A stretch of DNA of 24,208 bases. Origin: a virus (Duplodnaviria; Heunggongvirae; Uroviricota; Caudoviricetes). The DNA lies in IMG/VR virus record IMGVR_UViG_2579778956_000001, positions 1 through 24,208 of that record. One strand, given 5' to 3'. Both the position numbers and the translations under genes were made by a program. Every line of letters starts with the position of its first letter. Within the stretch, counting starts at the first letter, position 1. The notes beneath the pieces are model-generated. The model ran no database searches. It saw only the letters and a list, made by a program, of their open reading frames with translations, and was not told the origin of the DNA. Positions 1 through 11,845 of this stretch are shown piece by piece.

Positions 1-1053
1 TTACGGGGTAATGCCAACCGCTGCCGCCACTTTGTCGCCACTTGGCAGCGTTGCCAGAGGATTGAAACGGAGCGCCGTTTCCAGATGATCCGGTGCCAGA
101 TGTGCGTAACGCATAGTCATTTTTATATCGTGGTGTCCGAGAATTTTTTGTAAGGCCAGAATGTTTCCACCCGACATCATGAAGTGCGCCGCAAACGTAT
201 GGCGCAGAACGTGTGTGAGTTGACCGCGAGGGAGCACGATAGACGTTTTTTCCATCACGGATAAAAATTGAAAATAGCAGTCTGTGAAGAAATTGAACCC
301 ATCAAGCGCCATGATCTCTTCGTAAAGCTCTTTACTGATAGGGATGCTTCTGTTTTTCTTCCCCTTCGTTCTTACAAAGGTAATTCGGTATTTGGTCACC
401 TGTGAACGAGTAAGATTTACGGCTTCTCGCCAGCGTGCGCCTGTGCTTAAGCATATCTTAACTACCAGTGCCAGAATTGGGTCCTGACGTTTGCAATCAG
501 CCAGTAATTCAACAATCTGCTCATGGGTAAGCCATGCCATCTCTTTTTCTGCGATGGTGAATTTTCGCATGTTCTCCAGTGGGTTCGGATACGACCATTC
601 GCCCAGGCGGGATAGTTCGCTAAAAACACTACTTAGATAGCTTTGCTCCAGGTTAATGGTGACCGGGCTTGCTCCTTTCTTCCATTTCTCGCTGAAGTAG
701 ATCTCACCTGTCAGGCGTTTATCTCGATAGTGGGCAAACATTTTAGAGGTTAGATCAGTTGCAAGGGGATTGCCCAGAGCGTCAACCATCAGCAGCAATT
801 TGTCATAGACATGCTGCCCAGCTGTCAGTGATTTACCATGTAGTTTGAACCATAGCTCAACCACGTCTTTCAGTGTTCGACGATCCACTGATTCACCTAG
901 CCAGGGCTTTGCTTCGGTTTCTTCCATCGTGTGACGCTCAAAAGCCAGTGCTTCGCCTTTGGTGGCGAATTGTTTACGCACACGACGTCCACTACGTCCG
1001 GCGGGGTAACATTCGCAAAGCCATTTTCCTGTGGTGAGTTTTCGTACTGCCAT
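1..1053 (-). CDS. int: P2/186-family tyrosine integrase (site-specific recombinase)
   Basis: 350-aa ORF with the stop codon at window positions 1-3. Contains LSTGARWREA, FVRTKGKK, HVLRHTFAAHFMMSGG, LQKILGHHD and MRYAHL motifs typical of P2-type integrases (catalytic R..HxxR..Y). Sits at the prophage end next to the repressor, as in P2/186. Confidence 0.9.
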   Translation of the reverse strand: MAVRKLTTGKWLCECYPAGRSGRRVRKQFATKGEALAFERHTMEETEAKPWLGESVDRRTLKDVVELWFKLHGKSLTAGQHVYDKLLLMVDALGNPLATDLTSKMFAHYRDKRLTGEIYFSEKWKKGASPVTINLEQSYLSSVFSELSRLGEWSYPNPLENMRKFTIAEKEMAWLTHEQIVELLADCKRQDPILALVVKICLSTGARWREAVNLTRSQVTKYRITFVRTKGKKNRSIPISKELYEEIMALDGFNFFTDCYFQFLSVMEKTSIVLPRGQLTHVLRHTFAAHFMMSGGNILALQKILGHHDIKMTMRYAHLAPDHLETALRFNPLATLPSGDKVAAAVGITP

Positions 1054-1078
1054 AAAAAAGCCCTCATATCAGAGGGCT
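1054..1078 (-). terminator. Hairpin plus T-run (minus-strand sense) between the DUF4041 gene and the int start codon; possible intrinsic terminator or attenuator
   Basis: Stem AGCCCTC (1059-1065) / GAGGGCT (1072-1078) with a 6-nt loop, preceded on the plus strand by AAAAAA (1054-1059), which is a U-run after the hairpin on the minus-strand transcript. The right arm GAGGG also lies 7 nt upstream of the int ATG and could act as its SD. Confidence 0.4.
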
Positions 1079-1136
1079 AAATTTAACTGTATATACAACC
1101 AGTAATCAATGTGTGATTGCTATGAAACATACATTG

Positions 1137-2813
1137 CTAAGCAACATGTAGTTCATCGTTGGCGGAAGTGGCTGCTTTGCGTTCCTGCTCAATAGCTAGT
1201 GACTCTCTATATTCTTTCGCCTCTGCAAACATTGTCCAGTGGGCATTGATGTTCATATCTTCAATAACCGATTTAATTTCTTTAATATTTACGTTAAAAA
1301 ACTCTTTTCGTGAGTTAATTTTATTGACCTGCTTTTCGTTGAAGACTTTATGCAGATGATTTTCTAATGACGGTGCATCATCACTATAAATCATCGCATG
1401 AACATCGAACGAAAAAGGAACACTAGCATCCCCAAGTTCACGAACACGATCAAGTGGTTCAAGGCGGCGTGTCATTCCAATTTTATATACATCTTCGCCA
1501 AATGAGCCAATATTGCTAATTATATAAACATGGCCTGATCTAGTTTGTTGAGCCATAGAAATAGCTCGTTGGTTTTTAGCTTCAGCTTCTTCATATTTTA
1601 ACTGTAGTTCAGCTATTTTTTGCTCTAAAGCTAAGCGTTGTTCTTCATTTGCAAGCATAAGCTCTTTCGTTGCTTTATTTATAGCTTGCTGAATAGCTTT
1701 TTCTTCTTTTTCGGCTTCTTTTATCGCTTTTTCATACTCTCTACGAGCTCTTTCCTCTTCACGAAGCTGTTCTTTAATCCTTCTTTGCTCCTCTTTTTCT
1801 TCGAGCATAATTTCATTAACTGCAACTCCCCATTTTAGCTCGTTGAGTCGTGCCTGAAGATAGATGTCACTTATTTTTGCGGATCTAAAAGCAGAGCCAT
1901 TATAATTTACAAGTTGAAATGCATCTTTTATTTCTTGGGAAAGTTTTCCAAAATTGTTGTGTTTGACTTTTGATAAAATACTGTCAACTCTTCCATTGAA
2001 GGCATCCAAAACAAAGTTGATAGCAGTATTACGCCTGTTTTGCTCAACATAATCACACGAAGCTGCTTTATTAGTTTTTATTAATGATTTTGTTAACTCC
2101 CTGGCTTTTTGTAATTCCTTGCCTGCATCTGTAAACTCATAATTTTCTGCCAATTCATCAAGTACACTACGGTTAGGGATGATCCATTCATCGCCATAAC
2201 CTTCAATTTTATTTTTCATTGATTTGGCAACTGCTTCATATTTTTCTGCAAACTCTTTAGCTTCATATGCTGAACCAGCAATCTCTTTTGCTCTTTCTTC
2301 TGCATCGGAAATAATTTTTACTGCGTTGTCATTAGCATTTGAGATCAGCTCATTTGCTTTACTGTTGGCATTATCAAGACGTTCTTTGGCTTTCAGGCGT
2401 GCATCGCGAGCGTCTTTGGTGATTGCTATAGCTTCGCTATTAGCGTTGCTTATTGTTATCTGAGCTTGATAACTTGCTTCGTTTACTGTCTTAGCTGCCT
2501 TTATTTGGGCTTCTTCTATTTTTTGCCTAGCTATTGAGTCTGCATTTTTTATCTTATTCTCTGCCTCCATCACTGCGCTGTGCAATTCTTCGTATTGCCA
2601 TAATGGTGCTGCTCGCCCTTCAAGCTCTGATAGATCTCGTGCAGTCTGTGCTAACTTTTCTTGATTTTCACTCAGTTGGCTGGAAAGGGCTATGTTGTTA
2701 GCCGTCAGATTATCTATGGCGGCTTTGTGTTCTTTACTTTGCTTAAATAATATTATAGCTAGAACAGGGGCGAGAAATGCTAATAAGAATATAACGATGG
2801 AAAATGAATTCAT
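1137..2813 (-). CDS. Membrane-anchored coiled-coil protein with DUF4041 and C-terminal T5orf172 (GIY-YIG-like, MUG113) domains; candidate defence/abortive-infection moron
   Basis: 558-aa ORF. N-terminal hydrophobic helix (FSIVIFLLAFLAPVLAIILF), long E/K/A-rich coiled-coil region, and C-terminal GHVYIISN...YKIGMTRRLEPLDRVRELG...PFSFDV...LHKVF...REFF, which matches the T5orf172 pattern from memory. AT-rich relative to the phage backbone. Starts 20 nt after the cI stop with AAGGA as SD. Confidence 0.8.
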   Translation of the reverse strand: MNSFSIVIFLLAFLAPVLAIILFKQSKEHKAAIDNLTANNIALSSQLSENQEKLAQTARDLSELEGRAAPLWQYEELHSAVMEAENKIKNADSIARQKIEEAQIKAAKTVNEASYQAQITISNANSEAIAITKDARDARLKAKERLDNANSKANELISNANDNAVKIISDAEERAKEIAGSAYEAKEFAEKYEAVAKSMKNKIEGYGDEWIIPNRSVLDELAENYEFTDAGKELQKARELTKSLIKTNKAASCDYVEQNRRNTAINFVLDAFNGRVDSILSKVKHNNFGKLSQEIKDAFQLVNYNGSAFRSAKISDIYLQARLNELKWGVAVNEIMLEEKEEQRRIKEQLREEERARREYEKAIKEAEKEEKAIQQAINKATKELMLANEEQRLALEQKIAELQLKYEEAEAKNQRAISMAQQTRSGHVYIISNIGSFGEDVYKIGMTRRLEPLDRVRELGDASVPFSFDVHAMIYSDDAPSLENHLHKVFNEKQVNKINSRKEFFNVNIKEIKSVIEDMNINAHWTMFAEAKEYRESLAIEQERKAATSANDELHVA

Positions 2814-2833: not shown

Positions 2834-3430
2834 TCAATTTGAAACTATTGTACTTCTTATACAAGCAACCACTTCAATATCAGAAAATGCACATTCAAAG
2901 CTATTCTCTGTAGTTGTAATTTTAATCATACCTTTTGGAAGCTTTGTGATTTTTCGAATGGAATAGGTTCCGTCGATGTTGATTAACCAGTGTCCATCAA
3001 GTACTTCAGAAAATTTTTGATCACAAATGTATGTGACAAGCCCATCCTGAATAACAATTGGTGATGAAAGATTTGCAGGAAGAAATGATGAATCGAATAC
3101 ATATGAACCATCTTCAATCATTTTGCCTGCGGTAAGGCGAAACTTGGGAAGCTCTTCTGTGGCTACTGTCAGCGAGCTTTGCTTAAGTCCTTGCCCGGTG
3201 GTTAACCATTTCAGTGAGGTTCCTGTTTCAAGAGCACATTGGATTATCCAGTCTGCAGGAAACGTATCCCGCAAATACCTGTTCGCCAGAGTGCTTTTTG
3301 ATACTTCCAAGTGATCAGCTAAAGCCTGTCGTGTCGTAAAGCCATAAGCTTCGACTAATCGCTCAATCGCAGCCTTACCACCTTTATTGGGATTTATTTT
3401 GATCTCACTTGGGTACTTTGATGTTGACAT
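2834..3430 (-). CDS. cI: 186-type CI immunity repressor (N-terminal HTH, C-terminal oligomerisation domain)
   Basis: 198-aa ORF. N-terminal LVEAYGFTTRQALADHLEVSKSTLANRYLRD...ALETGTSLKWLTTGQG resembles the phage-186 CI HTH domain. Divergent from the apl/cII genes and adjacent to int. No LexA/S24-type Ala-Gly cleavage site or G-D-S-M motif seen. Confidence 0.75.
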   Translation of the reverse strand: MSTSKYPSEIKINPNKGGKAAIERLVEAYGFTTRQALADHLEVSKSTLANRYLRDTFPADWIIQCALETGTSLKWLTTGQGLKQSSLTVATEELPKFRLTAGKMIEDGSYVFDSSFLPANLSSPIVIQDGLVTYICDQKFSEVLDGHWLINIDGTYSIRKITKLPKGMIKITTTENSFECAFSDIEVVACIRSTIVSN

Positions 3431-3779: not shown

Positions 3780-4289
3780 ATGTTTGATTACCAAGTTTCC
3801 AAACATCCACATTTTGATGAAGCCTGTCGTGCATTCGCATTGCGCCACAACCTGGTGCAACTGGCAGAACGTGCTGGCATGAATGTGCAGATTCTGCGGA
3901 ACAAGCTGAACCCATCTCAACCTCATTTATTAACCGCACCAGAAATCTGGCTGCTTACCGATCTGACTGAAGATTCAACGCTGGTAGATGGTTTTCTGGC
4001 ACAGATTCACTGCCTGCCATGTGTACCGATTAATGAGGTTGCAAAAGAGAAACTGCCGCATTACGTCATGAGCGCAACTGCAGAGATCGGACGTGTTGCA
4101 GCAGGTGCGGTATCTGGTGATGTAAAAACTAGTGCCGGTCGTCGTGATGCTATCAGCAGCATTAACTCTGTAACACGACTGATGGCGCTGGCTGCTGTTT
4201 CATTGCAGGCCCGTTTACAGGCTAATCCTGCGATGGCGAGTGCAGTTGATACCGTGACTGGCCTCGGTGCTTCATTCGGTTTGCTGTGA
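3780..4289 (+). CDS. cII: Phage regulatory protein CII (186/P2-family)
   Basis: Start chosen at ATG 3780 ([45 protein letters not shown]...) after the apl stop, with a GGGG SD upstream. Sequence recalled as 186 CII-like; position after apl. Confidence 0.7.
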
Positions 4290-4802: not shown

Positions 4803-4869
4803 CCAACCAATGAAATTAATGGCGTAAACCCGCCGGGCATCCCTTTATCTAAATTCAGGAGAATTGATT

Positions 4870-5103
4870 ATGCGTAATATTGAAACCCTCTCGACCAAAA
4901 CCGGACCGGATGACGCAGGGCTTAATATTTTACTGACAGAGGCTCGTCTGGAAGAACGCCGGGCAAGGGCTGAAGCAATGGCAGCTCGCCTTGATAGCCT
5001 GGCGTGTCATATCACATCCCGCCAGCTAACCCACGTCGAAGCGGCAGAACTGCTTCGTGTGACTGCTGAAGCAATCCAGAACGAAGCGCAGGAGATCCAC
5101 TAA
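4870..5103 (+). CDS. Early-region hypothetical protein
   Basis: ATG at 4870 preceded by AGGAG (4856-4860); the ORF-track start at 4864 is a TTG. Stop overlaps the next gene's start. Confidence 0.5.
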   Translation: MRNIETLSTKTGPDDAGLNILLTEARLEERRARAEAMAARLDSLACHITSRQLTHVEAAELLRVTAEAIQNEAQEIH

Positions 5104-8687: not shown

Positions 8688-8707
8688 TACTGTAAATATA
8701 AACAGTG
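8688..8707. promoter_or_regulatory. LexA (SOS) box overlapping a putative promoter upstream of the small ORF at 8748
   Basis: taCTGTaaatataaACAGtg (CTGT 8690-8693, 8-nt AT-rich spacer, ACAG 8702-8705) matches the consensus CTGT-N8-ACAG. Embedded in an AT-rich region with a TTTACA -35-like hexamer upstream, and about 45 bp before an ORF with a strong SD (AGGAGG 8738-8743). Confidence 0.6.
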
Positions 8708-8747
8708 GTTATGTATACAGTATTGCTTTGGTGTCATAGGAGGAAAG

Positions 8748-8936
8748 ATGCAGGACTATTTTTTGGAGTCTTTGAAGCTCCAGCGCATTGATTTTTTTCT
8801 TAAGCTTGTAGCGGCTAGTGAGTGTAGTGATGAAGAGAAGGGGCTGGCTCTGCAGTGGGTTTCAGAGCTGACTGATGAGTTGATGGCGAAAATTCGTGCC
8901 CATGAATATAACCGTGTAATGGATCTTCCCGGTTAG
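8748..8936 (+). CDS. Small hypothetical protein under putative LexA control (possible antirepressor-like or SOS-induced factor)
   Basis: 62-aa ORF with strong SD AGGAGG and an upstream LexA box. Position corresponds to the 186 tum / P2 tin-old region downstream of gene A. No confident homology recognised. Confidence 0.5.
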   Translation: MQDYFLESLKLQRIDFFLKLVAASECSDEEKGLALQWVSELTDELMAKIRAHEYNRVMDLPG

Positions 8937-8980: not shown

Positions 8981-9106
8981 AAGGTCAACTAAGGATTGAA
9001 ACAGAAAGCCCTTGAAAACAGTAGCAAGTTGCCTATTATCTACGCTGTATTTAATCGATGTCATTGGCTGTAATACCTTAAGTGATATTGAAAGGCGGTG
9101 TGGGGA

Positions 9107-10267
9107 ATGGATCTGGCTAAAGTTGAAGAACGCGTCCGAAGAGTCATAGGGACAATGGAGTCTGCCGAGCTTGATGAATATTTTTGGGGTAAGCGCTCGG
9201 GTTTGGGAGACTCATTACCTCCGTATTATCTCGTTTATTTTCTTTTGGTAGATTTACTGAAATTTAAAAATCGTGGGGTTGATGAGAAGATTTCTTTTTC
9301 TATCCCAGTCCGGATTGATGGGACTGTCGTAATTATAGAACATCGTAAACTTGGTTTAGATATATTTATCAAGAGTGATGATGATATAGAGCAAGCTAAA
9401 ACTGTTTTGAGACATATTTGCGCAGGGGTTAAAGCTGCTACGAAATTTTTTGACTCGCTTGCAGACAATGCAGCAAAGACTTCAAATCTAAATGTTAATA
9501 ACAATGCTAATTCTCTTTATGATAGGTTTTGCTATTTTTTAGAGCTATATAAACAGAAGCTTGATGAAGTTGCTGCTGGCCAAGAGTCTAAACTGGAAGT
9601 TGATAGTGAGTTTAAGTCTGATAATTTTTTCAGCCTGTTACAATCCACTTTTGAACAATCAAATAAGATAATTGAACTCCGAAGAGAGGCTATGTGGTTA
9701 GCAACGTCTGCAATTGAGTCATTTTTCAATTGGACCGAGCATGTTTTCATTCTTATTGCAATCTTGAAGGGTGAGATAAAAAATGGGAATGATGTGGCTG
9801 ATAAAGTTGGGAAAGAATGGGGGGAGAAATTCAAATTAGCCATTGATATTAACTCTTCCAGTCTAAAATCATTCTATGATCGTTTACTTATACTCAGAAA
9901 ACAGGTGCGTAATTTTGTAGCCCATGGCGCCTTCGGTAAGGATGGGCAAGCATTGGAATTTCACTCAAGTGTAGGGGCTGTGCCACTATTGCTGCCTCAT
10001 CGAGAAAATAAAGAACGTTTCAAGTTTGGAAATGGTGTGCATTTTTTGGCACCTGAAGCAATGCAATTAATTAACGATTTTCTTGAAAATTTGTGGCAGG
10101 GAGAACTGTCCCCAGCAAAAATTTATATTGAATCTGGATGTCCTTTAATACTATCTTACGTAACTAATGGAACCTATGCGGAGGCGATGAAATCAGAAAG
10201 GAATATGGACTTATTGGTTAATTACTTAACTCGTGAGATGGATAATGCCGCAAACATGGATTGGTAA
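9107..10267 (+). CDS. Hypothetical protein with HEPN-like R-N-x3-H motif (candidate RNase-type defence/abortive-infection effector)
   Basis: ORF with ATG at 9107 (alternative GTG at 9098; SD-like AAGG at 9092-9095, about 11 nt upstream). AT-rich codon usage. Contains LRKQVRNFVAHG, which fits the HEPN consensus R-[NSH]-x3-H. No other domain recognised. Lies in the gpA-Q hotspot. Confidence 0.65.
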   Translation: MDLAKVEERVRRVIGTMESAELDEYFWGKRSGLGDSLPPYYLVYFLLVDLLKFKNRGVDEKISFSIPVRIDGTVVIIEHRKLGLDIFIKSDDDIEQAKTVLRHICAGVKAATKFFDSLADNAAKTSNLNVNNNANSLYDRFCYFLELYKQKLDEVAAGQESKLEVDSEFKSDNFFSLLQSTFEQSNKIIELRREAMWLATSAIESFFNWTEHVFILIAILKGEIKNGNDVADKVGKEWGEKFKLAIDINSSSLKSFYDRLLILRKQVRNFVAHGAFGKDGQALEFHSSVGAVPLLLPHRENKERFKFGNGVHFLAPEAMQLINDFLENLWQGELSPAKIYIESGCPLILSYVTNGTYAEAMKSERNMDLLVNYLTREMDNAANMDW

Positions 10268-10594: not shown

Positions 10595-11845
10595 ATGGAT
10601 AAACAACGTGCTTCACAAGTTTTTGTGCCTGGCGGTATGCCGAAATTGACTTATGTTGAGCGCTCTGAAGGAGAGGTTCATGGAAAACTGGAGAGTGCTA
10701 AAGATAATTTATGTAAGTTAGTGACTTTAACTGGGCAAACAAAGTCTGGTAAGACTGTAATTACAAGAATGGTATTCCCAGTCATGGACGATGATGTTGT
10801 ATGGATTGACGGTGGGAGTATTACAACTGAAGATGATATTTGGGAGCAGGTATTAGAAAAACTAAATGGCTACCATAGTATTGAAGTTAATTCTGGAGAA
10901 AATAGTGCTATTGCAGTTAGTGGTAAGGTATCGGGGACCGCAAGTGCATTCGTTGTTAAAGGTACAGGTGAGGCTGGTTTAGTTCAGACGGATGGAAAGT
11001 CAAATGGTAATAAAAAATCGCGAACGATATCCGCAAAAAGTTCTGCACTAAAAGTTCTCTCTCAAACCAAGTCTAGTCTTATAATTGATGACTTTCATTA
11101 CCTTGATCGTGACCTACAAGGTAACTTTATTAGAGCGATAAAACCATTAGTTTTTGATGGAGTACCAGTTGTACTGATAGCCATTCCACATCGAAGATAT
11201 GATGCTGTAAAAGTTGAAAAAGAAATTACCGGACGGCTAGAAAATATTTCCATGCCTTCGTGGGAAATGGATGAACTAAAACAAATAGCAAAAGTGGGAT
11301 TTCCTCTGTTAAACATGGAAGTTAGTGATTCAGTAATTGATAAAATTGCCAATGAATCATTGGGAAGCCCTCATTTAATGCAAGAGTTTTGCAAGGCTAT
11401 ATGCTTAGCAAATAATGTTAAAGAAACTTTGCCGAGTAAGTTAGTTATTAATTCTTTAGATGATGATATTTTTAGAAAGGTTGCAGAATCCACTGGGAAA
11501 ATAGTATTTGATAAGTTAGCTAGTGGCCCTAATCAGCGAACTGACAGAATTCCTAGAAAACTGAAAAGTGGTGAGGAAGTAGATATATATAAAGTTGTAT
11601 TATATGCATTGTCACATATGAAACCAGGAATGCAAAGTATTCAGTATGAGGAGTTAAGATCAGCCATACGCGAACTGGTGCAAGATGCTCCTCCACAAGC
11701 TCATGAGGTTACTCGTGTTATAGAAAAAATGGCTAAAATAGCTGCTACGGAAGAAGCTTCAACTCCTGTAATAGATTGGGATAAGGAGGACCGAAAGTTG
11801 CATATTACTGATCCATTTTTTGCTTTTTATCTAAAATGGCGATAA
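10595..11845 (+). CDS. P-loop NTPase (Walker A/B ATPase), candidate defence-system ATPase
   Basis: 416-aa ORF with SD GGGAAG upstream. Walker A LTGQTKSGKT (about residue 45) and Walker B-like hhhhDD (SLIIDDFHYLD). AT-rich. No nuclease (Toprim/HNH) motif recognised, so not an obvious Old/Gabija-type protein. Confidence 0.8.
   Translation: MDKQRASQVFVPGGMPKLTYVERSEGEVHGKLESAKDNLCKLVTLTGQTKSGKTVITRMVFPVMDDDVVWIDGGSITTEDDIWEQVLEKLNGYHSIEVNSGENSAIAVSGKVSGTASAFVVKGTGEAGLVQTDGKSNGNKKSRTISAKSSALKVLSQTKSSLIIDDFHYLDRDLQGNFIRAIKPLVFDGVPVVLIAIPHRRYDAVKVEKEITGRLENISMPSWEMDELKQIAKVGFPLLNMEVSDSVIDKIANESLGSPHLMQEFCKAICLANNVKETLPSKLVINSLDDDIFRKVAESTGKIVFDKLASGPNQRTDRIPRKLKSGEEVDIYKVVLYALSHMKPGMQSIQYEELRSAIRELVQDAPPQAHEVTRVIEKMAKIAATEEASTPVIDWDKEDRKLHITDPFFAFYLKWR

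What the first reader, a model, noticed from the sequence alone, without database searches (positions are those of the whole stretch)
1054..1136. Hairpin plus U-run abutting the int start codon, with the SD inside the stem
On the minus strand the DUF4041 gene is followed by a 7-bp GC-rich hairpin (1059-1078) and a T-run that ends directly at the int ATG; the only plausible SD for int (GAGGG) is the right arm of the hairpin. This suggests int expression is gated by read-through or unfolding of this structure, for example translational coupling or attenuation from the cI-moron transcript. In P2, int is expressed at low level from the repressor promoter; here an inserted gene and a structured element sit in between.
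Basis: partly seen in the sequence, partly recalled or inferred. Interest (0 to 1): 0.3.

Follow-up and report, generated by a model that had tools for sequence, protein, structure and literature searches.

The report
Insulated, SOS-controlled integrase start region
The hairpin in front of the prophage integrase gene is real and conserved, but it sits just after a previously overlooked integrase promoter carrying a LexA (DNA-damage) operator and a CII-type activator site, so it most likely blocks expression from upstream transcripts rather than gating it.

Summary
A 7-bp hairpin (1078..1059, minus strand) is followed by T6 and then the int ATG, and the only Shine-Dalgarno sequence (GAGGG) lies in its 3' arm.

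The 58 nt between the cargo stop codon and the hairpin are not spacer. They hold:
- a 186-CII-type site (1134..1109)
- a -35 hexamer
- the best LexA box in the window (1104..1085)
- a -10 hexamer

This module precedes int in about 1,100 E. coli genomes, whatever cargo lies between cI and int. In Rahnella and Pantoea prophages it precedes int where int follows ogr. It is absent where cI abuts int, as in phage 186.

Forty-three of 46 distinct versions keep a hairpin, built from at least 10 unrelated stem sequences. Thirty-eight of 46 have the SD inside the 3' arm. Only the Enterobacteriaceae clade has the T-run.

The 5' arm always ends 7-10 nt after the -10 hexamer, so transcripts from the int promoter should lack it. 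Median folding energy falls from -13.3 to -2.0 kcal/mol.

Best reading: the hairpin terminates and translationally silences cI-cargo read-through, and int runs from its own CII/LexA-controlled promoter. No transcript data were available, so the start site is predicted. I found no published description.

The parts
1..1053 (-). int, a tyrosine integrase of 350 aa. Its 3' end faces the attachment site next to host rcdA.
   Evidence: ORF. Pfam Int_N and Phage_integrase. Host flank rcdA-ybjJ in E. coli genomes.
1054..1059 (-). T6 run between the hairpin and the int ATG. It would form the U-tract of an intrinsic terminator in read-through RNA.
   Evidence: At least 5 T in the last 8 nt in 47 of 67 distinct cassettes, all from the Enterobacteriaceae clade. 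Absent in Serratia, Yersinia, Rahnella and Pantoea.
1059..1078 (-). Hairpin: 5' arm 1078..1072 (AGCCCTC), loop 1071..1066, 3' arm 1065..1059 (GAGGGCT).
   Evidence: -13.3 kcal/mol, z = -3.6. Conserved as a structure with different sequences.
1061..1065 (-). Shine-Dalgarno GAGGG of int, 7 nt before the ATG, fully inside the 3' arm.
   Evidence: An SD-like tetramer lies fully inside the 3' arm in 38 of 46 distinct cassettes.
1072..1076 (-). Predicted transcription start of the int promoter (point estimate 1074), inside the 5' arm of the hairpin.
   Evidence: Inference from two rules that agree. One is 7 nt after the -10 hexamer. The other is 35 nt after the end of the proximal CII half-site, as annotated for 186 pE. 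RNAs starting at 1074 or further downstream lose the hairpin.
1080..1086 (-). -10 element: TTAAAT at 1086..1081, or TAAATT at 1085..1080.
   Evidence: Spacing of 17-18 nt from the -35 hexamer. The equivalent TTGACA-17-AAAAAT is reported by the promoter scan in L001. The window allele scores 8 of 12 and falls below the tool's cut-off.
1085..1104 (-). LexA (SOS) box TACTGGTTGTATATACAGTT, filling the promoter spacer.
   Evidence: PWM score 24.9 bits, the top site in 24 kb. ACTG-N10-CAGT occurs 3 times against 0.36 expected. CTG and CAGT are invariant in 46 distinct cassettes. 40 of 47 sites scoring at least 15 bits in 727 kb lie at this position.
1104..1109 (-). -35 hexamer TTGATT (TTGACA or TTGACC in most relatives).
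   Evidence: ACATTGA is invariant or nearly so.
1109..1134 (-). 186-CII-type binding site ATGTATG-N12-CACACAT. The proximal half-site ends at the first T of the -35 hexamer.
   Evidence: Same form and geometry as the annotated CII site of 186 pE, ATGTTTG-N13-CAAACAT. It is one of only two ATGT-N18/19-ACAT sites in the window. Present at -77..-85 in 43 of 59 cassettes, and elsewhere almost only at pE.
1137..2813 (-). Cargo gene: PD-Lambda-1-type defence protein (DUF4041 plus T5orf172/MUG113). It starts 20 nt after cI and is probably co-transcribed with it.
   Evidence: Pfam. PADLOC PD-Lambda-1, E = 7e-120. Vassallo et al. 2022, PMC9519451.
2834..3430 (-). cI, a 186-type immunity repressor and the first gene of the lysogenic operon that the hairpin would terminate.
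   Evidence: Pfam Phage_CI_repr and Phage_CI_C.
3780..3806 (.). CII site of the phage's own pE (ATGTTTG-N13-CAAACAT) at the start of cII. Listed as the internal comparator for the site upstream of int.
   Evidence: Same position as in phage 186. CII is of the CP76 family.
8688..8707 (.). Second LexA box (TACTGTAAATATAAACAGTG) downstream of replication gene A, at the position of p95/tum in 186. It shows the phage is wired to LexA.
   Evidence: 23.9 bits.. 186 annotation.

Best explanation
The interval 1134..1054 is a compact, portable expression module for int, and the hairpin is its upstream insulator.

Shown by sequence and comparison:
1. int is preceded by a sigma-70-type promoter.
2. The promoter spacer is a strong LexA box.
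3. The -35 hexamer abuts a site of the kind bound by the 186 CII activator.
4. A hairpin fills the whole space between the -10 hexamer and the ATG, and its 3' arm holds the SD.

Inferred:
1. Transcription from this promoter starts at about 1074, inside the 5' arm. These mRNAs cannot form the hairpin and carry a free SD on a leader of about 20 nt.
2. Transcripts arriving from the cI and PD-Lambda-1 operon contain both arms. In this clade they terminate at the U-run. Any that read through have the SD sequestered.
3. Int synthesis is therefore uncoupled from the constitutively transcribed lysogenic and defence operon.
4. Int synthesis then depends on LexA cleavage (SOS, for excision) and probably on CII (after infection, for integration).

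The module appears to replace the cI-int overlap of phage 186 wherever other genes separate int from cI.
For: The hairpin is real.

The module belongs to int, not to the cargo.
- 1,135 of 5,426 complete E. coli genomes match the region.
- Only 164 carry the DUF4041 gene. The listed others share int plus 60-85 nt upstream.
- The cargos differ: a P-loop NTPase, a YdcA-like 63-aa protein, a 329-aa protein and a KAP NTPase.

The LexA box is strong and specific.
- It scores 24.9 bits, the best site in the window.
- It lies 27-34 nt from the ATG, mostly 29-32 nt.
- 40 of 47 strong sites in 727 kb of species-representative loci lie exactly there.
- CTG and CAGT are invariant down to 55% Int identity.

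The CII-type site matches its model.
- It has the same form and the same distance to the -35 hexamer as the annotated 186 pE site.
- The pattern occurs only at pE and here in the window.
- 43 of 59 cassettes have it.
- The phage encodes a CP76-family CII.

The promoter scan reports TTGACA-17-AAAAAT in L001.

The structure is conserved rather than the sequence.
- 43 of 46 distinct cassettes have z < -2, and 38 of 46 have the SD in the 3' arm.
- In the Rahnella clade 7 of 9 pairs vary and 100% of cells stay paired, through G-U-compatible changes.
- The E. coli clade shows one double compensatory change.

The geometry fits.
- The 5' arm ends 7-10 nt after the -10 hexamer in all cases.
- Median folding energy falls from -13.3 to -2.0 kcal/mol when the RNA starts at the predicted +1.

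The context fits.
- The cassette is present whenever the cI-int gap is at least 385 nt (52 loci).
- It is absent in all 15 loci where cI abuts int.
- It is present in front of int downstream of ogr, with no cI upstream.

There is precedent for terminators and SD-sequestering stems that protect against impinging transcription: IS200 (PMC4513863).
Against: - No transcript 5' or 3' ends, LexA binding data or CII activation data exist for this element. The start site is predicted from consensus geometry only.
- The window allele has weak hexamers (TTGATT, and TTAAAT or TAAATT, 8 of 12). The promoter scan did not report it.
- If transcription started 5 nt after the -10 hexamer, 15 of 46 cassettes would still fold at -8 kcal/mol or better.
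- A base-pair-probability estimate of SD exposure changed only modestly, from a median of 0.20 to 0.35.
- LexA bound in the spacer should also block CII-driven transcription during infection. How Int is supplied for integration is therefore not settled. Leaky repression or terminator read-through may be needed.
- The CII-type half-sites differ from pE. They read ATGTATG/CACACAT against ATGTTTG/CAAACAT, with a spacer of 12 rather than 13.
- A few cassettes have the LexA box but no hairpin (L028, L047, L191-L197).
- Cargo-bearing phages without the cassette exist (L037, L041-L046, Yersinia phage vB_YenM_201.16).
Confidence: 0.55

Rival explanations
1. int has no promoter of its own and is expressed from the cI-cargo transcript. 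The hairpin acts as a leaky terminator and SD trap that sets a low Int level.
For: - In 186 and P2, int is expressed from the lysogenic transcript. The 186 cI-int overlap is shown.
- The terminator-like hairpin with its SD in the stem is real.
- The window's promoter hexamers are weak.
- Some read-through could solve the problem of Int supply during infection while LexA is bound.
Against: - A LexA box, a -35 hexamer, a -10 hexamer and a CII-type site are conserved at fixed distances from the ATG down to 55% Int identity.
- The same unit sits after ogr, where no cI transcript can arrive.
- Many relatives have the hairpin without a U-run, so leaky termination is not the conserved feature.
Confidence: 0.15
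2. The int promoter starts upstream of 1078, so the hairpin is the 5' end of the int mRNA itself. It would then act as a stabilising 5' stem-loop, a constitutive translational brake, or an early attenuator of the int promoter's own transcripts.
For: - Start-site choice can deviate from the 7-nt rule.
- With a start 5 nt after the -10 hexamer, 15 of 46 cassettes keep a stem of -8 kcal/mol or better.
- An RNA starting at 1078 keeps the hairpin.
- IS200 tnpA has an SD-sequestering stem in its own 5'UTR (PMC4513863).
Against: - The stem begins only 0-6 nt after the -10 hexamer. To include the whole 5' arm the start would have to lie at an unusually short distance from the -10 hexamer.
- The hairpin plus the spacer to the ATG fills the entire 25-28 nt between the -10 hexamer and the ATG. 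It cannot fit inside a normal leader.
Confidence: 0.12
3. It is simply the rho-independent terminator of the cI-cargo operon. The overlap with the int SD is a by-product of tight packing and has no regulatory meaning.
For: - The window hairpin has the canonical terminator shape.
- Sub-threshold Rfam hits are all to terminator-ended sRNAs and leaders.
- In one allele, flanking A- and T-runs make it look bidirectional.
Against: - At least 10 unrelated stems all place the SD in the 3' arm.
- Hairpins without a T-run abut the ATG directly in Serratia, Yersinia, Rahnella, Pantoea and Brenneria.
- Wobble-only substitutions preserve pairing.
Confidence: 0.1

Closest known systems
Phage 186 lysogenic operon (pL/pE - cI - int), its CII-activated pE and its LexA-repressed p95 (tum)
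   Same: - The same phage type: CI of the Phage_CI_repr/CI_C families, CII of the CP76 family, and Fil.
- The same CII half-site form and the same distance to the promoter as at pE.
- A LexA box downstream of gene A, as at p95.
   Different: - In 186, cI and int overlap by 1 nt, and int has no promoter, LexA box or hairpin of its own.
- Here a defence gene separates them, and int carries a separate module that combines a CII-type site and a LexA box in one promoter.
Lambda pI, the CII-activated int promoter (textbook knowledge, not tested here)
   Same: - A dedicated int promoter that responds to the lysogeny-establishment activator CII.
- int expression is separated from the main operon.
   Different: - Lambda CII is unrelated to 186 CII.
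- Lambda pI has no LexA operator.
- Lambda controls read-through int expression by sib retroregulation at the 3' end, not by a 5' hairpin.
Protection of transposase genes from impinging transcription. IS200 has a left-end terminator plus an SD-sequestering stem (PMC4513863). IS10 and IS50 are recalled from memory (Davis, Simons and Kleckner 1985).
   Same: - A terminator and/or a stem that hides the SD of a recombinase gene from transcripts entering from outside.
- In IS10 the element's own promoter fires inside the structure, so its own mRNA escapes.
   Different: - Here one hairpin does both jobs.
- The gene is a phage integrase.
- The internal promoter is regulated by LexA and probably by CII.
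- The start-site position is predicted, not measured.
LexA-regulated integron integrase promoters (intI; PMC3108266)
   Same: A LexA box overlaps the core promoter of a tyrosine-recombinase gene. This ties recombination to the SOS response.
   Different: - A different recombinase family and a different element.
- No CII-type site and no SD-sequestering terminator.
Intrinsic (rho-independent) terminators
   Same: A G+C-rich stem-loop followed by a U-run at the end of an operon.
   Different: - The 3' arm doubles as the ribosome-binding site of the next gene.
- The stem overlaps that gene's predicted start site.
- Relatives keep the stem but lose the U-run.

Membership tests
Intrinsic terminator | G+C-rich stem-loop immediately followed by a U-tract | tested here: met
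   A 7-bp stem with 5 G-C pairs, then T6. This holds only for the Enterobacteriaceae clade, 47 of 67 cassettes.
Intrinsic terminator | RNA 3' ends at the U-tract in vivo | not testable with these tools
   No Term-seq or RNA-seq data were available.
LexA (SOS) operator | Palindrome CTG-N10-CAG with an A+T-rich centre, close to TACTGTATATATATACAGTA | tested here: met
   The box matches the consensus at 16 of 20 positions. It scores 24.9 bits on a PWM built from E. coli boxes recalled from memory. The annotated 186 p95 site scores 27.5 on the same PWM.
LexA (SOS) operator | Overlaps the core promoter of the regulated gene and is conserved in orthologous positions | tested here: met
   The box fills the -35/-10 spacer. 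It lies 27-34 nt from the ATG in 67 distinct cassettes.
LexA (SOS) operator | LexA binding and SOS induction of the gene | not testable with these tools
   No ChIP, EMSA or expression data. No paper was found.
186 CII-activated promoter (pE type) | Two inverted 7-bp half-sites (ATGTTTG) about two helical turns apart | tested here: inconclusive
   The window has ATGTATG-N12-CACACAT. That is 6 of 7 and 5 of 7 matches, with a spacer 1 nt shorter than at pE. Many relatives have exact CAAACAT.
186 CII-activated promoter (pE type) | Proximal half-site ends at -35 relative to the start site, and the phage encodes a CP76-family CII | tested here: met
   The half-site ends at the first T of the -35 hexamer, the same as the 186 pE annotation. 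CII matches Pfam PF06892 at E = 3.6e-42.
186 CII-activated promoter (pE type) | Activation by CII | not testable with these tools
   A reporter assay is needed.
SD-sequestering protection from outside transcription (IS10/IS200 type) | The SD of the recombinase gene is base-paired in transcripts that enter from upstream | tested here: met
   GAGGG lies in the 3' arm. The full-length RNA folds with the hairpin intact. This holds in 38 of 46 cassettes.
SD-sequestering protection from outside transcription (IS10/IS200 type) | The element's own promoter starts inside or beyond the 5' arm, so its own mRNA is translatable | tested here: inconclusive
   This is predicted from geometry only. The 5' arm ends 7-10 nt after the -10 hexamer, and the energy falls from -13.3 to -2.0 kcal/mol. 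The start site has not been measured.
Attenuator, leader or riboswitch | Match to a curated RNA family, a conserved leader peptide, or an alternative antiterminator pairing | tested here: not met
   No Rfam match reaches its gathering score; the best is RyhB at 28.6 against 55. The small ORFs that start in the ATGT half-site have different frames and stop codons in the two E. coli alleles (reading of the alignment). No competing helix appears in the 117-nt fold.

The most novel reading that the evidence does not exclude
186-like prophages carry a self-contained 'insulated int module'. It is a dual-input promoter, activated by CII and repressed by LexA, that fires from inside a terminator and SD-trap hairpin. 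Only promoter-initiated mRNAs would be translatable. On this reading the module is what lets defence genes be inserted between cI and int, and lets int be moved next to ogr, without disturbing integration or excision control. Int supply in these phages would then be directly SOS-controlled, in addition to antirepressor control of CI.
Probability: 0.45. Interest if true: 0.6.

Novelty: new variant of a known kind. Interest (0 to 1): 0.5.

Why it matters
P2/186-like prophages are among the commonest in Enterobacteriaceae. This int module is in about a fifth of complete E. coli genomes, including an E. coli B laboratory derivative, AS19.

In the 186 model, int is simply the gene after cI. If the reading here is right, many relatives instead control Int directly through LexA and CII, and they shield it from the lysogenic and defence operon.

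That would explain three things:
- How a defence-gene hotspot between cI and int can exist without mis-expressing Int.
- How int can be relocated next to ogr.
- How Int could be supplied when DNA damage triggers induction.

It would also provide a compact natural part, a terminator with an embedded promoter, that may interest circuit designers. Every step can be tested directly with standard reporters in strains that already carry the prophage.

Tried and rejected
- Cargo-borne ('moron') terminator: rejected. The hairpin and about 60-85 nt upstream stay with int under every cargo.
- Known RNA family: none reaches threshold.
- One global MAFFT alignment for covariation: the stems are too different to align in register. 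I used per-sequence folding and two within-clade alignments instead. The shuffle controls there are uninformative, because almost all changes are one-sided.
- SD exposure from base-pair probabilities: the contrast was weak. This is partly because my 6-nt SD window included loop bases and the 30-nt coding flank offered alternative pairings. The local energy comparison is clearer.
- Upstream inverted repeat ATGTATG...CATACAT as a second RNA hairpin: rejected in favour of a CII-type protein site. The outer span is fixed at 26-27 bp. Rahnella versions (ATGTATA...CAAACAT) are not self-complementary. The motif matches the annotated 186 CII site.
- Leader-peptide attenuation: the small ORFs are not conserved between alleles.
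- Literature: four searches for a LexA- or CII-controlled int promoter in P2/186-like phages found nothing relevant. One search for E. coli B start-site maps also found nothing. Older subscription papers are not covered.
- Salmonella BTP5 transcriptome paper (PMC7067206): it says only that the repressor and int are weakly transcribed, and it gives no start site.

Full report
**Setting.** The left 3.4 kb of the window, read on the minus strand, is the lysogeny end of a 186-type prophage.
- cI lies at 3430..2834 (Pfam Phage_CI_repr and Phage_CI_C).
- Twenty nt later comes a 558-aa DUF4041/T5orf172 gene at 2813..1137. PADLOC calls it PD-Lambda-1 with E = 7e-120.
- int lies at 1053..1.
- cII (CP76 family) and the early genes lie on the other strand.
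- In E. coli genomes the 3' end of int faces host rcdA.

**The observation.** The minus strand at 1078..1051 reads AGCCCTC-TGATAT-GAGGGCT-TTTTT-ATG.
- The stem-loop folds at -13.3 kcal/mol with z = -3.6.
- It is the only minus-strand terminator-like site in the first 4.5 kb.
- GAGGG (1065..1061) is the only plausible SD for int, and it is entirely in the 3' arm.
- The description is correct, with one exception. Fifty-eight nt separate the cargo stop codon from the stem.

**The hairpin belongs to int, not to the inserted gene.**
- A megablast of cI through int against 5,426 complete E. coli genomes hits 1,135 of them. Only 164 carry the DUF4041 gene.
- In the sampled listing, the other records match from query position 2367-2389 onward. 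That is int plus 60-85 nt upstream.
- Different cargos lie between cI and this conserved block: a P-loop NTPase, a 63-aa YdcA-like protein, a 329-aa protein and a KAP NTPase.
- Aligning these loci shows two E. coli alleles of the hairpin..AGCCCTC..GAGGGCT.. and ..ATGCTCTCY..GGAGGGCAT... Both are followed by T6-ATG.

**What the 58 nt contain.** I compared 155 loci with a recognisable int start, from 77 species-representative genome loci, 80 IMG/VR contigs, four E. coli genomes and the window. They show a fixed order.
- First comes ATGT-N18/19-ACAT.
- Next comes TTGAC(A/C/T).
- Next comes CTG-N10-CAG.
- Next comes an A+T-rich hexamer.
- Last come the hairpin and the ATG.

The CTG-N10-CAG element is a LexA box.
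- The window copy (1104..1085, TACTGGTTGTATATACAGTT) scores 24.9 bits. The PWM was built from E. coli boxes that I recalled from memory.
- It is the best site in the 24-kb window. The annotated LexA site of 186 p95 scores 27.5.
- In 727 kb of species-representative loci only 47 sites reach 15 bits, and 40 of them lie at this position.
- The box ends 27-34 nt before the ATG, mostly 29-32 nt.
- CTG and CAGT are invariant in 46 distinct sequences, down to 55% Int identity, while the centre varies.
- The box fills the spacer of a sigma-70-type promoter. The scan tool reports TTGACA-17-AAAAAT in locus L001.
- The window allele (TTGATT, then TTAAAT or TAAATT) is weaker and falls below that tool's cut-off.

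**The CII-type site.** The ATGT...ACAT element (window 1134..1109, ATGTATG-N12-CACACAT) matches the CII-binding site annotated at pE in the phage 186 GenBank record.
- That site is ATGTTTG-N13-CAAACAT.
- The window has only two ATGT-N18/19-ACAT sites. One is at the start of cII (3780-3806), which is the pE position in 186. The other is this one.
- Forty-three of 59 distinct cassettes have the motif at -77..-85 from the ATG. Elsewhere in 280 kb it occurs almost only at pE.
- In the 186 record the promoter features end at the start site. The proximal CII half-site of pE therefore ends at -35.
- Here the half-site ends at the first T of the -35 hexamer, which is the same geometry.
- I first read this repeat as a second hairpin and then rejected that. 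Its outer span is fixed, and the Rahnella versions are not self-complementary.

**The hairpin is conserved as a structure.**
- Forty-three of 46 distinct cassettes fold between the -10 hexamer and the ATG with z < -2.
- Thirty-eight fold at -8 kcal/mol or better. Thirty-eight have an SD-like tetramer wholly in the 3' arm.
- At least ten unrelated stem sequences are used.
- In 14 distinct Rahnella-type sequences, 7 of 9 pairs vary and every cell stays paired. All changes are C-to-U opposite G or A-to-G opposite U. This fits selection on the sense-strand RNA.
- The E. coli clade shows one double compensatory change, AGTCCTC/GAGGACT.
- The T-run is not general. At least 5 T occur in 47 of 67 cassettes, all from the E. 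coli, Klebsiella and Enterobacter group. In Serratia, Yersinia, Rahnella, Pantoea and Brenneria the stem abuts the ATG or leaves a short non-T spacer.
- The conserved property is therefore SD sequestration. Termination is an added feature of the window's clade.

**Geometry relative to the promoter.**
- The last base of the 5' arm falls 7-10 nt after the -10 hexamer in every folded cassette.
- The stem, the loop and the spacer to the ATG fill the whole 25-28 nt between the -10 hexamer and the ATG.
- Two rules place the window's start site at about 1074, inside the 5' arm. One is 7 nt after the -10 hexamer. The other is 35 nt after the CII half-site.
- RNAs starting at 1074 or further downstream lose the hairpin. 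The z-score drops to about 0.
- Across the 46 cassettes the median energy falls from -13.3 kcal/mol to -2.0 when the RNA starts at the predicted +1.
- This step is inference. No start site has been measured.

**Context supports an autonomous module.**
- All 52 distinct cassette-bearing upstream sequences with a cI homologue upstream have at least 385 nt, and at least one gene, between cI and int.
- All 15 loci where cI abuts int (gap of 1-3 nt) lack the cassette. Phage 186 has that arrangement.
- In Rahnella, Pantoea and related prophages the same cassette precedes int directly downstream of gpD and ogr. Host genes follow int, so no cI transcript can reach it.
- Some cargo-bearing phages manage without the cassette (L037, L041-L046, Yersinia phage vB_YenM_201.16).

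**Mechanism proposed.**
- Transcripts of the cI and PD-Lambda-1 operon carry both arms. They stop at the U-run, and any read-through has a buried SD.
- Transcripts from the int promoter lack the 5' arm and are translatable.
- The promoter is held down by LexA and is probably boosted by CII.
- Int would thus be tightly off in a stable lysogen, made on SOS induction for excision, and made after infection for integration.
- The weak point is that LexA in the spacer should also limit CII-driven transcription in an uninduced infected cell.

**Comparison with known systems.**
- The parts are all known kinds: the 186 pE CII site, the 186 p95 LexA operator, lambda's CII-dependent pI, LexA-controlled integron integrases (PMC3108266), and terminators and SD traps that protect IS200 and IS10 transposase genes from impinging transcription (PMC4513863).
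- The combination is what I could not find described. It is one dual-input promoter firing from inside a terminator whose 3' arm is the SD, attached to a phage int gene.
- The search library omits most subscription journals.
- I therefore rate it a new variant of a known kind. The structure and the operators are well supported. The start-site-dependent logic is only moderately supported.

**Verdict.**
The SD trap and terminator are real, but int is probably not dependent on read-through.
- Interest is 0.5.

Noticed in passing
window 8688-8722 and ORF 8748-8936 (+): There is a strong LexA box (TACTGTAAATATAAACAGTG, 23.9 bits) with a weaker overlapping box at 8703-8722 (15.6 bits). They lie just after replication gene A, which is the position of the SOS promoter p95/tum in phage 186. 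The downstream ORF is a 62-aa protein of phrog_698. It has no Pfam match and no DinI/Tum similarity, so it may be a different SOS-induced antirepressor.
   Followed up: partly
window 9098-10267 and 10595-11845 (+): Two further cargo genes follow the LexA-controlled small ORF, in the known A-Q defence hotspot of P2-like phages. One is a 389-aa protein with no family match. The other is a 416-aa AAA-type protein that matches the PADLOC candidate PDC-S59 (E = 1e-31). They might be co-transcribed from the SOS promoter.
   Followed up: partly
window 1137-2813 and the equivalent interval in L001-L004, L162, L163 and many L0xx loci: The cI-int interval is a variable cargo hotspot. Its contents include PD-Lambda-1, P-loop and KAP NTPases, a 63-aa YdcA-like protein (phrog_6000), and one- to three-gene sets of 300-660 aa. 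The cargo starts within about 20 nt of the cI stop codon, so it is probably expressed with the repressor in lysogens.
   Followed up: partly
L029 3711-6056; L033 4615-6065; L166-L199: In Rahnella, Pantoea, Pectobacterium and related prophages, int lies downstream of gpD and ogr at the opposite prophage end and is followed by host genes. The attachment site therefore sits on the other side of int relative to the cI region, unlike in P2 and 186.
   Followed up: partly
L004 4746-5974; L162 5186-5518: Some E. coli prophages carry extra genes between int and the host junction next to rcdA. One carries a Panacea-domain protein plus a 251-aa protein, and another a 110-aa protein. This is cargo between int and the attachment site.
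   Followed up: no
L028, L033, L035, L038, L040, L047 (about 45-75 nt upstream of the LexA box): Where a strong G+C-rich terminator, presumably that of ogr, lies immediately upstream of the CII-type site, the SD hairpin is weak or absent (0 to -8.9 kcal/mol). This would fit a redundant insulating role. However, several Rahnella loci have both features, so the trend is not clean.
   Followed up: partly
L002 3483-3563 (allele with ATGCTCTCY stem): In this allele the ATG inside the distal CII half-site is in frame with int, with no stop codon between them. That would give a possible 26-aa N-terminal extension. In the window allele the same frame stops after 4 codons, so this is probably not meaningful.
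   Followed up: no
L071 about 4850-4968 (Kosakonia arachidis): Here the hairpin and T-run are intact, but the LexA box is degenerate (7.3 bits) and the Int N-terminus diverges after residue 12. This looks like a decaying copy of the module.
   Followed up: no
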